Origin: Antedon mediterranea
Taxonomy: Eukaryota > Animalia > Echinodermata
Reading direction: 5' to 3'
DNA: 64,000 bases
NCBI RefSeq assembly: GCF_964355755.1
Contig: NC_092680.1
Location: 21,585,045 to 21,649,044, forward strand
Shown: piece after piece, positions 43,401-49,400 of the stretch
How the letters are laid out: every line of letters starts with the position of its first letter
Numbering within the stretch: the stretch's first letter is position 1
Translations under genes and position numbers: made by a program
The notes under the pieces: generated by a model
What the model was told of the DNA's origin: nothing
The model's database searches: none
What the model saw: the letters and a program-made list of their open reading frames with translations, nothing else

Positions 43401-46400
43401 AATAATGGTGCTAAATAATTGCAGGCTAGTACACCTTACCTGAATAAGTACAGCAGAATGCGAGAGGGCGTCATTGATTGTCAATAGGGCATTTGATGTC
43501 GCAACTATTCCAGGGTCGTGACCCCATGTCGTAATCAATAATCTGTCATATTCCTAAATGGATAATAAATAATTACCATAATAATTATTATATTAGTATT
43601 ATACTATTTGATTCCTAAGAAGGGAGAGAAGTTGTCAACTGATGTATTGCATATATGCAGATTCAAGCCAGCTAAAGCAAAAGGTAGGACACTAGGTTCA
43701 GGTTAGCATTTTAACATTTTCAGGAACTTCCCTCCCCCTCAAAATACTGGATCCGCCACAACAAGTCAAACAATAAGACAAATATTTATAAAAAGATATA
43801 AAATAGATTTTCCACATATAGCATTCTGTTTCTGCATAAAAGCAAGAAAACATGGAGTATGGAGTAATTAGTTTAGTCATAAGATATGATGAGATGAGAT
43901 ATTATAATGTATACACTATGGTTTAGTTTAAATTCCTAAAACAACAAATCCATTAGATATGAATTGGTTAAGTGTCACTGCTGGATAAGATAAGATTGTA
44001 CTTACTTGAAACATCTTTGGTAGACACCTTAGTCTTGAACCTTTAACAAGAAGTAATGATTGTGGACCGCTGCCAATCTTACTATATAAGAACAACTTAA
44101 ACCATACTGAATTCACCTAGAAAAGAAAACATCCAACATTGAACATTTAGTAGTAATGATTGTGGAGCACTGCCAATCATATTCAATCTGTTTACACTGT
44201 TTGTACCTACCTCAGGTATGGCTGGACCAATGTGTTGTGGAGTGCAACTACTTACAGGACGAATCTCATTACTAAGAGGTGCCATTGATACTAGGAATCT
44301 GACAATTCAAAAACAAATATTCATCATTTTCTATTCTGAAAACATTTCTTTCCGATCTTTTTTCTTTTTCACTAGACTCAGGTCCAGGGCATTTACTTCC
44401 AAATACATAGGCCAGCAGATGTTAAACACATTTTTAATTACAAAAATTAGAAAATACCAAAATAAACTGCTATTATAAATATCTATTTTGAAAGACATGG
44501 TAACTGATTGATCTTAATTGAACTATGTGAGGTACACATAACCACCAAAACACACCACAGCCTACAGTAAGGCTACTTACTCATAAACCAACCACAACCT
44601 ACAGTAAGGCTACTTACTCATAAACCAACCACAGCCTACAGTAAGGCTACTTACTCATAAACCAACCACAGCCTACAGTAAGGCTACTTACTCATAAACC
44701 AACCACAGCCTACAGTAAGGCTACTTACTCATAAACCAACCACAGCCTACAGTAAGGCTACTTACTCATAAACCAACCACAGCCTACAGTAAGGCTACTT
44801 ACTCGTAATTCTTTTGTAGCACCCTAGAACATGTTGCTGGTTCTAAACCTAGCAAACTTTCACACCTTAACAGATCAATGCCTAAGCCTGTGGGGTACAT
44901 CTCTGGGTCTGGGCTGATTTCCTTGTTATACCTAAAAAGATGAATCAAAGTTTTGTTAAACCATAAATCAACATAAAATGCACTCAAATTGAATTAACTG
45001 TCAAAATATTTTGTGCTTTTGTTTGTCAACTTGTTATCAGCGATTGGGTGTGAAGGTACGCGACTCAAAATATAATTTGTCATTTTGTTTGACCTTATAA
45101 ATGTCTACACACAACACCTATACCTATTTTTTCCTGGTTTTTGTTGATGTTTTTTTTGTTTACGATTTCTGTTTTTAGGTGGATTCTTTTTGTCTATATT
45201 ATATGAACAGTGAAAATGATCAATACAAAAAAAAGTTCCAAAATAATATACTTTTTAATTGTCGGCCTTAAAGTTACCTTAGATAAGATATTGTCTTGCG
45301 TAGAATGACGGCATGTTCAAAATATCTTTGTGCTTCACCCTCAGCAAAACTTGTAGCAGGAACCTAGAAAATAAGCAAATCATTGGAATACAAACTATAA
45401 AGCTCTGTTTACACTATCAAACTTTATGTGCCCATATATGGACATGATGATGTCATATCACTACCATATTTGGGTATATCACTACCATATTTGGGTATAT
45501 CACTACCATATTTGGGTATATCACTACCATATTGGGGCACATCATTTTTTGTCAGTTTGATAGTGTAGACAGAGCTAACAAGATGTTAGCAATTACTGTA
45601 ATAAATTTTGCAATTTATTTGTTTGCCTTTCATAATGAAATCAAGAATGTAGTTTACCTTTTCTAATTCTCCCAGAAAGCTATCAAGAGATTCATCTGAC
45701 AATTTACCAACTTCAAACATTGTGACAGCATGACTCTTTAGACCCTGTCAAAACAAAGGTGACACATTAAAAACTTATTTCTAAGAAGGCAACTATAAAG
45801 TGGGGTAAAAATAAAACCATGTTTAGATTTTTGAAAGCTATATTATCTTCATTATTAATATTAATATTAACATTTGTTCAATTAGTATAGCACCTTCTTC
45901 TATATATAATAACATATATAAATCCAAAGGCAAATTACTAAAAACTGACAATGCTGTGGGTATCAGTGGTTGGATCTCAATAGAGATATAAAATAAAATA
46001 TGCAAAAAGCTAAATCAAAGCGAAGTAAAACAGCCTGAAAAATTAGCAGAGCTAACACTAGCCCTGCATCAGTGCAATACAAACATATCATAAGGAATGG
46101 TGTTAATACTTACAGAAGAGAGGTTTCCCATCATAAGGAATGCTGTTAATACTTACAGAAGAGAGGTTTCCCATCATAAGGAATGGTGTTAATACTTACA
46201 GAAGAGAGGTTTCCCATCATAAGGAATGCTGTTAATACTTACAGAAGAGAGGTTTCCCATCATAAGGAATGCTATTAATACTTACAGAAGAGAGGTTTCC
46301 CATCATAAGGAATGCTATTAATACTTACAGAAGAGAGGTTTCCCATCATAAGGAATGCTGTTAATACTTACAGAAGAGAGGTTTCCCATCATAAGGAATG

Positions 46401-49400
46401 GTGTTAATACTTACAGAAGAGAGGTTTCCTATCATAAGGAATGCTGTTAATACTTACAGAAGAGAGGTTTCCCATCATAAGGAATGCTGTTAATACTTAC
46501 AGAAGAGAGGTTTCCCATCATAAGGAATGCTGTTAATACTTACAGAAGAGAGGTTTCCCATCATAAGGAATGCTGTTAATACTTACAGAAGAGAGGTTTC
46601 CCATCATAAGGAATGCTGTTAATACTTACAGAAGAGAGGTTTCCCATCATAAGGAATGCTGTTAATACTTACAGAAGAGAGGTTTCCCATCATAAGAAAT
46701 GCTGTTAATACTTACAGAAGAGAGGTTTCCCATCATAAGGAATGCTATTAATACTTACAGAAGAAAGGTTTCCCATCATAAGGAATGCTGTTAATACTTA
46801 CAGAAGAGAGGTTTCCCATCATAAGGAATGGTGTTAATACTTACAGAAGAGAGGTTTCCCATCATAAGGAATGGTGTTAATACTTACAGAAGAGAGGTTT
46901 CCCATCATAAGGAATGCTGTTAATACTTACAGAAGAGAGGTTTCCCATCATAAGGAATGCTGTTAATACTTACAGAAGAGAGGTTTCCCATCATAAGGAA
47001 TGCTGTTAATACTTACAGAAGAGAGGTTTCCCATCATAAGGAATGCTGTTAATACTTACAGAAGAGAGGTTTCCCATCATAAGGAATGGTGTTAATACTT
47101 ACAGAAGAGAGGTTTCCCATCATAAGGAATGCTGTTAATACTTACAGAAGAGAGGTTTCCCATCATAAGGAATGCTGTTAATACTTACAGAAGAGAGGTT
47201 TCCCATCATAAGGAATGCTGTTAATACTTACAGAAGAGAGGTTTCCCATCATAAGGAATGCTGTTAATACTTACAGAAGAGAGGTTTCCCATCATAAGGA
47301 ATGCTGTTAATACTTACAGAAGAGAGGTTTCCCATCATAAGGAATGCTGTTAATACTTACAGAAGAGAGGTTTCCCATCATAAGGAATGCTGTTAATACT
47401 TACAGAAGAGAGGTTTCCCATCATAAGGAATGCTGTTAATACTTACAGAAGAGAGGTTTCCCATCATAAGGAATGCTATTAATACTTACAGAAGAGAGGT
47501 TTCCCATCATAAGGAATGCTGTTAATACTTACAGAAGAGAGGTTTCCCATCATAAGGAATGCTATTAATACTTACAGAAGAGAGGTTTCCCATCATAAGG
47601 AATGCTGTTAATACTTACAGAAGAGAGGTTTCCCATCATAAGGAATGCTGTTAATACTTACAGAAGAGAGGTTTCCTATCATAAGGAATGCTGTTAATAC
47701 TTACAGAAGAGAGGTTTCCCATCATAAGGAATGGTGTTAATACTTACAGAAGAGAGGTTTCCCATCATAAGGAATGCTGTTAATACTTACAGAAGAGAGG
47801 TTTCCCATCATAAGGAATGGTGTTAATACTTACAGAAGAGAGGTTGCCCATCATAAGGAATGCTGTTAATACTTACAGAAGAGAGGTTTCCCATCATAAG
47901 GAATGCTATTAATACTTACAGAAGAGAGGTTTCCCATCATAAGGAATGCTGCTAATACTTACAGAAGAGAGGTTTCCCATCATAAGGAATGCTGTTAATA
48001 CTTACAGAAGAGAGGTTTCCCATCATAAGGAATGGTGTTAATACTTACAGAAGAGAGGTTTCCCATCATAAGGAATGCTGCTAATACTCACAGAAGAGAG
48101 GTTTCCCATCATAAGGAATGCTGTTAATACTTACAGAAGAGAGGTTTCCCATCATAAGGAATGCTGTTAATACTTACAGAAGAGAGGTTTCCCATCATAA
48201 GGAATGCTATTAATACTTACAGAAGAGAGGTTTCCCATCATAAGGAATGCTGTTAATGTTGAATCAAACAGGAATGCTATCCTCTTACTGTGAGCTGTGG
48301 ATGTTGTACTCATCAAACTTGGTATTATTTCTACAAGAAAACCAAACTATATTCTTATGGATTTACACAAAAGGAATAAGGTAGCTTCTATACATTCACT
48401 GAATAGCACAATAGAGCATGAACATTCTAGTAGTGTTACTCTATTGCAAGATATCATGTAATAATCCATGGAAGTTTAGACATTATAGCTTTAGAATAAT
48501 GGTATTAGTAACAACAACATGGTGTAATACAGTAGGTCTAATTGTGGTTGTCTTAATTAAGGTCTTTTGTTTACTTGCTGCCTAGTAGCAGCTATTTACA
48601 TTCTGCAAAGCAAATTGACCCCACGCTTCATTTGACCTCACACTTCATTTGACCTCACACTTCATTGCTATACTGTAGCTCTGCTTGCAGCACTCACTTT
48701 GCACTTTATAGTGTATATGTTGACTAAACCAACAAATAACATATACAAACCAGGGTCATCTAAACTTGCTGTATCAGAGGCTGTAGTAGAGTTGTCAATA
48801 GAGGGTGTCTTATCATTTATGCCAGCGGTCCAATCTATTAGTAGCACATCTTCACTCTCTGAAGTTCTGAATTTTAAAAAAAAGAAAGATAAAAGCTCAA
48901 TCTTTTATTAACTCAATTATTTAAACATCATTATTATTTTAGTTATTCATTAAGTTTTTCTTGAAAGACCAATGTGTTGGTTGATGATGATGATGATGAG
49001 TACATTAAGTAAATTAGACTTAATCAATTACAAACAAAAATCAGCATATCTTTAGAAATACGTCAGTTTTAAGATGTTTCTTAAATAATTACTTGTTTAC
49101 TTACAGTCAAAATATAGCAGTGACAGGTTACATACTTACTTCTTATTGGTGGATATAGCAGTGACAGGTTGCATACTTACTTCTTATTGGTGGATATAGC
49201 AGTGACAGGTTACATACTTACTTCTTATTGGTGGATATAGCAGTGACAGGTTGCATACTTACTTCTTATTGGTGGATATAGCAGTGACAGGTTACATACT
49301 TACTTCTTATTGGTGGCTATAGCAGTGACAGGTTACATACTTACTTCTTATTGGTGGATATAGCAGTGACAGGTTACATACTTACTTCTTATTGGTGGAT

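What the first reader, a model, noticed from the sequence alone, without database searches (positions are those of the whole stretch)
46088..48256. About 50 near-perfect copies of a conserved exon end plus 5' splice site
2.2 kb of intron consists of the 33 coding nt for [11 protein letters not shown] plus GTAAGTATTA, so about 50 donors have essentially the same context as the real one. Only the first is productive: the second shifts frame and later ones include TAA. Each unit also has a TTAACAG acceptor-like motif, allowing 29-nt pseudo-exons or recursive splicing. How the first donor is selected is a real mechanistic question. Interspersed variants (GCTG/GGTG/GCTA) argue against pure assembly stutter.
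Basis: partly seen in the sequence, partly recalled or inferred. Interest (0 to 1): 0.8.

Follow-up and report, generated by a model that had tools for sequence, protein, structure and literature searches.

The report
Repeated splice donors in crinoid gene
In a feather star's FAM91A1 gene, a 43-base piece covering the end of one exon and its splice signal sits in 50 head-to-tail copies in the next intron; a close relative lacks the repeat, and the cell likely still uses the first signal, as in similar repeats already known from human and lancelet genes.

Summary
Observation confirmed; interpretation partly supported. The array (46087-48257, 43 bp x 50.5) copies the last 37 nt of exon 11 plus GTAAGT of a crinoid FAM91A1 gene, whose 21-exon model is identical to NCBI's Antedon mediterranea protein. 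All 50 donors keep GT; only donor 1 gives the full protein. The unit appears as a closed repeat in read-derived contigs of two samples, so it is not an assembly artefact, though its length is unconfirmed (depth 10-70x flank). Two DNA runs of a close relative hold the unit once, and its RNA splices at the donor-1 position, so the array is likely recent. Donor use in this species was not shown directly. The 'acceptor' scores as background; recursive splicing is unsupported. This is a known kind: donor-spanning minisatellites (human F7 intron 7, where first-donor selection was shown; lancelet 'mirages'). This scan noted the same layout before on other DNA (45 notes, at least 19 genomes). Worth keeping: 3 of the gene's 20 donors carry such arrays, all GTAAGT donors without -1G, and the intron-14 array has a different unit length in the relative.

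The parts
46087..48257 (-). Donor-spanning minisatellite, 43 bp x 50.5: 37 exon-derived nt + GTAAGT; first unit is the real end of exon 11; ends in a 21-nt partial unit
   Evidence: unit present as a 73-nt closed-cycle contig in runs X1 and X5
48221..48330 (-). FAM91A1 exon 11 (110 nt, ends in phase 0)
   Evidence: exon 10-11 splice joint in X5 and X9
48215..48220 (-). Authentic donor of intron 11 (TCT|GTAAGT), donor 1 of 50
   Evidence: only donor giving the 839-aa protein; the relative's RNA contig leaves here into exon 12 and its DNA has a single donor here
45745..46086 (-). Non-array remainder of intron 11 (342 nt), holding part of an interspersed repeat at about 45900-46057 and the real acceptor
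45658..45744 (-). FAM91A1 exon 12 (87 nt)
   Evidence: loose end of X9 contig matches it
49112..50154 (-). Second donor-spanning array, intron 9: 41 bp x 25.4 (31 exon + 10 intron nt), 25 GTAAGT donors
44554..44808 (-). Third donor-spanning array, intron 14: 37 bp x 6.9 (about 6 exon-like + 31 intron nt), 7 GTAAGT donors; the relative also has an array here with a 45-nt step in run X8
40491..56139 (-). Host gene FAM91A1, 21 exons, 2520-nt intact reading frame

Best explanation
This is a real minisatellite, likely young and neutral, that copies the last 37 bases of FAM91A1 exon 11 plus the first six of intron 11 fifty times; splicing likely still uses the first donor, and slips to later donors would meet early stop codons and likely be degraded. 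Shown: the array, its units, the intact gene, the stop codons for donors 2-50, the unit as a closed repeat in two samples, a single copy in a close relative, and that relative's splice at the donor-1 position. Inferred: origin by a short tandem duplication across the boundary (slippage or break repair) followed by ordinary minisatellite turnover, with loss of the old 5' part of the intron; first-donor choice by position (5'-to-3' order of recognition with exon definition from the upstream acceptor, as shown for human F7); nonsense-mediated decay of the rest. The copies are tolerated, not functional.
For: Anatomy. Only donor 1 restores the junction found in 93 of 120 listed homologues (GNLS-x-x-LKSHAV). 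No local cue separates the donors: 27 of 50 units are identical to the real one over 43 nt and predicted unpaired probability of donor 1 (0.027) lies inside the range of donors 2-50 (0.004-0.045), so position is the remaining cue. Real: 73-nt (43+30) cycle contig at depth 516 against 42-53 flank in X1, and at 93.6 in X5, a second sample and study; summed depth 19,754 against 278-296 in X4. Young: organism B DNA runs X8 and X6 show single-copy depth on the unit (about 263 and 43, like their flanks), X8's contig runs from exon 11 through GTAAGT into unrelated intron letters, and array units carry the window's letters at the three exon-11 sites where B differs. Rough ceiling on mis-splicing: uniform use of the 50 donors would put about 580 depth on the unit in X5; 93.6 is seen. 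Turnover: interspersed variants, with 7, 5, 1, 5, 5 variant units per ten, so the centre is the most uniform. Precedent: PMC1557585 (F7, first donor only; LMNB2 and PDGF first only; 6-16 and CBS also use two near pseudo-sites) and PMC3087553 (mirages did not disturb splicing).
Against: No read or contig shows the exon 11-12 joint in this species: X5's exon contig stops at the unit edge (48258) and X5 has no contig on exon 12. NCBI's protein is an annotation, not independent of the reading frame. The depth ceiling uses contig depths that the tool says are no copy number or expression measure, assumes the second animal's allele is as long, and sees only RNA left after decay; up to about 2.5-3.7 units per transcript are allowed. 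Copy number is unsettled: 10-12x (X1) and 67-71x (X4) from one sample against about 34x expected for consensus words. 'Young' rests on one outgroup species (loss in B is not excluded). Pure chance placement fits poorly: 3 of 6 arrays in the gene span a donor (P about 0.01-0.02 after leaving out the reported one).
Confidence: 0.76

Rival explanations
1. A mutational process tied to transcription or splicing targets 5' splice sites in this lineage and seeds tandem duplications there again and again; this array is one product. First-donor use still holds, but the arrays are not randomly placed.
For: 3 of 20 donors of one gene carry arrays, each starting at the real donor; P about 0.011-0.018 for the other two given random placement. 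All three are GTAAGT donors lacking -1G (3 of 6 against 0 of 14, Fisher p 0.018, noticed after the fact). The intron-14 donor has an array in both species with different steps, 37 nt here and 45 nt in X8. Earlier scan notes report donor-side excess in other animals (e1-8147634; unchecked).
Against: One gene, chosen for having an array; no genome was held for a count. None of the 19 other listed repeats carries GTRAG in every unit at a real donor, and none outside FAM91A1 has it in each unit. The two intron-14 units may share one origin. Exon-derived, GC-richer units may simply expand more readily, which needs no splicing link.
Confidence: 0.12
2. The array is a regulatory dial: the spare donors bind U1 or are used at a set rate, sending part of the RNA to decay, so allele length tunes FAM91A1 level.
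For: Each unit offers 8 letters complementary to the U1 5' end (+1 to +8; recalled consensus). Every alternative product has an early stop. Human 6-16 and CBS use two near pseudo-sites (PMC1557585, Introduction). X5 shows 93.6 depth on the unit while most unique intron parts have none.
Against: Absent in the close relative, which makes the same mRNA. No sign of selection on the donors can be read from 8 variants. The X5 depth is also explained by about 1-2x pre-mRNA times the copy number; the intron-14 array shows depth 4 in the same run.
Confidence: 0.06
3. Later donors are silenced by stop-codon surveillance of splicing (suppression of splicing), not by position.
For: Donors 3-50 lie behind an in-frame TAA; in introns 9 and 14 the TAA is inside the first donor itself. 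Described for human latent 5' splice sites (PMC1524910, PMC3510495; starts of abstracts seen).
Against: Donor 2 lies before the TAA, so this would not silence it. In F7, pseudo-sites without an early stop stayed silent (PMC1557585, Discussion, cited there as unpublished data). Not shown in echinoderms in what I searched.
Confidence: 0.04
4. Assembly artefact (stutter or large over-expansion).
For: X1 depth ratio (10-12x) is below the 34x expected from the assembled array. X1-X4 may be the sample the window came from.
Against: The array-specific junction is in X5, another sample and study; X4 gives 67-71x; eight distinct variants are interspersed.
Confidence: 0.02

Closest known systems
Human F7 intron 7 37-bp VNTR (Borensztajn et al. 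2006, PMC1557585; read: abstract, Introduction, first Results section, Discussion) and the 6-16, CBS, LMNB2 and PDGF cases its Introduction cites
   Same: Minisatellite whose first unit spans an exon-intron boundary, so identical donors follow the real one; similar unit size; first donor expected to win.
   Different: 50 donors against 5-9 (F7) or up to 26 (6-16); 37 of 43 nt are exon-derived against 4 of 37 in F7, so the upstream context is copied too; invertebrate; donor use not shown here.
Lancelet 'mirage' minisatellites (Ebner et al. 2010, PMC3087553; read: passages on mirages; the Adh3 paper of Canestro et al. 2002 was not held and is known to me only through that citation)
   Same: Tandem duplications of exon-intron boundaries in an invertebrate deuterostome, several per gene family, with splice signals in the units and less uniform cluster edges.
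   Different: Here in a crinoid; only donor-side arrays (3 in one gene); far more copies than the 3-6 reported for BflGb6; present in one species and absent in a close relative.
Recursive splicing at ratchet points (recalled, not read)
   Same: AG and GT motifs recur inside an intron.
   Different: No AG|GT join; the AG scores as background; intron only 2.5 kb.

Membership tests
Donor-spanning minisatellite (F7 IVS7 type / mirage) | Head-to-tail minisatellite with units of tens of bases | tested here: met
   43 bp x 50.5, 98.9% identity to consensus
Donor-spanning minisatellite (F7 IVS7 type / mirage) | First unit spans a real exon-intron boundary | tested here: met
   exon 11 / intron 11 of an intact FAM91A1; position spliced in the relative's RNA contig
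Donor-spanning minisatellite (F7 IVS7 type / mirage) | Splice signal repeated in following units | tested here: met
   50 of 50 GT; 49 GTAAGT, 1 GTGAGT
Donor-spanning minisatellite (F7 IVS7 type / mirage) | Normal splicing kept, at the most upstream donor | tested here: inconclusive
   only donor 1 gives the full protein and uniform use is too high for X5 depth, but no joint was seen in this species
Donor-spanning minisatellite (F7 IVS7 type / mirage) | Length variation between alleles or cells | not testable with these tools
   only contigs were served; depth ratios 10-12x and 67-71x from one sample are no copy numbers
Donor-spanning minisatellite (F7 IVS7 type / mirage) | Homogenised interior, less uniform edges | tested here: inconclusive
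   variant units per ten: 7, 5, 1, 5, 5 (no significance test); edge units most diverged in the intron-9 array
Recursive splice site / pseudo-exon array | Acceptor directly joined to a donor (AG|GT) | tested here: not met
   AG is 29 nt before GT; letters before each GT are TCT
Recursive splice site / pseudo-exon array | Acceptor of usable strength | tested here: not met
   scores -4.4 and -4.3 against real acceptors -1.7 to 12.9 and intronic median -4.3; matrix from only 20 sites
Latent 5' splice sites under suppression of splicing | In-frame stop between the real and the latent donor | tested here: inconclusive
   met for donors 3-50, not met for donor 2
FAM91A1 (host gene) | FAM91_N and FAM91_C domains in one intact protein | tested here: met
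   PF14647 E 8e-149, PF14648 E 2.7e-170 on P0001, identical to the model

The most novel reading that the evidence does not exclude
Crinoid germ lines have a process that repeatedly duplicates DNA exactly at 5' splice sites of one type (GTAAGT without -1G): it struck three of this gene's 20 donors, hit the intron-14 donor twice independently in two sister species, and built a 50-copy array at intron 11 since they split. Splice donors would then be mutational hot spots for tandem repeats, linking spliceosome binding to genome instability.
Probability: 0.12. Interest if true: 0.7.

Novelty: new member of a known kind. Interest (0 to 1): 0.3.

Why it matters
As it stands, a clean and large natural example of a known oddity. 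It is useful as a test case: 49 spare donors share up to 37 nt of exon context with the real one, so local sequence cannot pick the winner; donor 2 lies before the first in-frame stop and donors 3-50 behind it, which separates position-based choice from stop-codon surveillance; and a sister species without the array gives a ready control. If donor-targeted duplication proved genome-wide, it would explain mirage repeats and bear on how new introns arise.

Tried and rejected
No whole genome is held for this window, so no genome-wide count of donor arrays and no check for the unit elsewhere in the genome. No run is on record as RNA; X5 and X9 hold spliced joints, so I treat them as RNA-containing. 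All runs were assembled contigs, which break at the repeat: the exon 11-12 joint could not be read in this species, and X5 has no contig on exon 12 (a hole that proves nothing). RNA folding does not single out donor 1. The acceptor, pseudo-exon and recursive-splicing reading was rejected. A fourth, decayed donor array in intron 6 was considered and not supported (best 12 of 20 letters, p 0.30); intron 4 had one 13-of-20 match (p 0.024, not corrected for 20 tests). No repeated block of variant units, so no higher-order repeat. A 21-nt piece of the relative's intron start is not in the window at up to 3 mismatches. The Adh3 mirage paper was not held. Searches listed no paper on such arrays in crinoids or on a genome-wide excess at donors; I saw only listings and abstract starts for these, the library lacks most subscription journals, and I read no supplements. 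Scan notes by place and by sequence were empty.
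Full report
Observation. TRF reports a 43-bp array at 46087-48257 with 50.5 copies. Read on the minus strand it has 50 donors, 43 nt apart, from 48221 to 46114; 49 read GTAAGT and one GTGAGT. Twenty-seven of 50 units equal the consensus, which is the real exon copy; there are 23 differences in 2150 letters, from 8 distinct variants. The array ends in a 21-nt partial unit.

Host gene. The exon belongs to a 21-exon gene at 56139-40491 with GT-AG introns throughout. The spliced product is 839 aa and letter-identical to P0001, NCBI's 'FAM91A1-like [Antedon mediterranea]', XP_071964356.1, with both FAM91 Pfam domains. 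The array lies at the start of intron 11 (2476 nt, phase 0). Of 120 listed homologues, 93 show the junction GNLS-x-x-LKSHAV that donor 1 restores; 11 lack the exon-12 part, 1 differs otherwise and 15 lack the motif.

Consequences of each donor. Donor 1 gives 839 aa. Donor 2 shifts the frame and stops at 423 aa inside exon 12. Donors 3-50 all stop at 416 aa on a TAA 52-54 nt into the intron. One to three 29-nt pseudo-exons stop at 402 aa. All would be decay substrates by the usual rule (established knowledge, not tested). There is no AG|GT join, so recursive splicing has no support.

Is it real? Nine coded runs were listed, all as assembled contigs, none on record as RNA; I laid 6 of the 9. On 48178-49100, X1 (organism A, perhaps the source sample) has a 73-nt contig, the length of a closed 43-nt cycle at word size 31, at depth 516 against 42-53 for the flanks. 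X5, another sample and study of organism A with a spliced exon 10-11 joint, holds the same 73-nt contig at 93.6. On 44770-46130, X4 shows summed depth 19,754 over the last unit against 278-296. The ratios, 10-12x and 67-71x, bracket the 34x expected for consensus words. The tool warns that such depths are no copy numbers, so the array is real but its length is known only from the assembly.

How old? In organism B, a close relative (3 differences over exon 11), X8's contig runs through exon 11 and GTAAGT into letters unlike the array, and X8 and X6, two samples of one study, show single-copy depth on the unit (about 263 and 43). X9's 3465-nt contig joins exons 9, 10 and 11 and leaves at the donor-1 position into exon 12. 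So donor 1 is the shared donor, and the array most simply arose after the two species split; loss in B is not excluded with one outgroup. The units carry the window's letters at the sites where B's exon differs. B's first intron letters are not in the window and the array ends mid-unit, so part of the old intron start was likely lost or replaced (inference).

Which donor is used here? Not shown directly: contigs break at the repeat (X5 stops at 48258) and X5 has none on exon 12. Indirect support: only donor 1 makes the protein of an intact, conserved gene; and uniform use of the 50 donors would put about 580 depth on the unit in X5, where 93.6 is seen, leaving at most about 2.5-3.7 units per transcript including pre-mRNA (rough, and blind to decayed RNA). 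Local sequence and predicted folding do not mark donor 1, which leaves position as the cue.

Beyond the finding. Two more introns of the same gene start with donor-spanning arrays: intron 9 (41 bp, 25 donors) and intron 14 (37 bp, 7 donors). The other 17 donors show none. Of 6 non-transposon arrays in the gene, 3 span a donor; leaving out the reported one, P is about 0.011-0.018 under random placement. All three are GTAAGT donors without -1G (3 of 6 against 0 of 14; p 0.018, after the fact). Organism B also has an array at the intron-14 donor: X8 shows a step back with 6 extra letters, a 45-nt unit, and X6 has raised depth there; shared or parallel origin cannot be told. Among 22 repeats of the window that I checked, no repeat outside this gene has GTRAG in each unit.

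Mechanism. Most likely a short tandem duplication across the boundary, expanded by ordinary minisatellite turnover (interspersed variants, most uniform in the middle), and tolerated because the spliceosome takes the most upstream donor while slips are removed by decay. Origin, donor choice and decay are inferred.

What is known. Borensztajn et al. 2006 (PMC1557585; abstract, Introduction, first Results section and Discussion read) describe the human F7 intron-7 VNTR with the same layout, show with minigenes that the copies are functional but only the most upstream one is used, and list 6-16, CBS, LMNB2 and PDGF as further cases. Ebner et al. 2010 (PMC3087553; passages) describe 'mirages' in lancelet genes that do not disturb splicing and propose them as a route to intron gain. 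Suppression of splicing at latent donors (PMC1524910, PMC3510495; abstract starts only) is a rival for donors 3-50 but not donor 2. This scan's own notes hold 45 findings of this kind in at least 19 genomes (unchecked AI notes; I had found both papers before seeing them).

Verdict. Real, well-defined, a new member of a known kind. Interest 0.3. The open lead is the clustering of arrays on one donor type, which needs a genome-wide count.

Noticed in passing
window 49112-50154 and 44554-44808 (minus strand): Two further donor-spanning arrays in the same gene (introns 9 and 14); the intron-14 donor also has an array in organism B with a 45-nt step instead of 37.
   Followed up: partly
window 44117-44210 (intron 15): The 94-nt intron holds a decayed 43-nt copy of part of exon 16 (score 50 against a shuffle maximum of 29), perhaps an old boundary duplication on the acceptor side.
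   Followed up: partly
window 51153-51326 (intron 6): Five GTAAG motifs, the real donor included, in a 174-nt intron with a 28-bp repeat of about 2.7 copies; not significant as copies of the donor.
   Followed up: partly
window 45398-45576 (intron 12); relatives near 16960-17065, 36050-36160, 36940-37100, 54815-55035, 63350-63475: MITE-like element with inverted ends of about 23 nt and an internal 21-bp tandem repeat; six copies in the window and summed contig depth tens of thousands of times the flank in both species.
   Followed up: partly
window 37162-37339 and 41035-41315: Two unrelated intronic arrays (17-21 bp and 14 bp units) share the core GGTATCCT, which resembles the minor-spliceosome donor (recalled); neither lies at an exon boundary.
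   Followed up: no
P0002 (Anneissia japonica FAM91A1-like, 738 aa): The annotated protein lacks the stretch for exons 11-13 and the start of 14, the region of these arrays; an assembly gap or repeats there would be worth a look.
   Followed up: no
window 48331-48750 (intron 10): Intron with a weak GTTTGT donor is covered by low-depth contigs in both RNA-containing runs (X5 4.6-6.8 against 34.9; X9 3.4-4 against 60), a hint of partial retention in both species.
   Followed up: no
window 56408-57661; 30821-31177: Tandem cluster of about 150-bp units with six tRNA-Asn calls and one called tRNA-Lys; two tRNA-Val genes.
   Followed up: no
window 11764-12567 (-), 21297-29663 (+), 34388-38310 (+), 58852-64000 (+): Neighbours: an ADP/ATP carrier-like gene in one long frame, an NLR-type gene (DED, NACHT, 59-aa LRR repeats), a regucalcin-like gene and a DUF5523 (likely CC2D2A-like, name recalled) gene.
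   Followed up: partly
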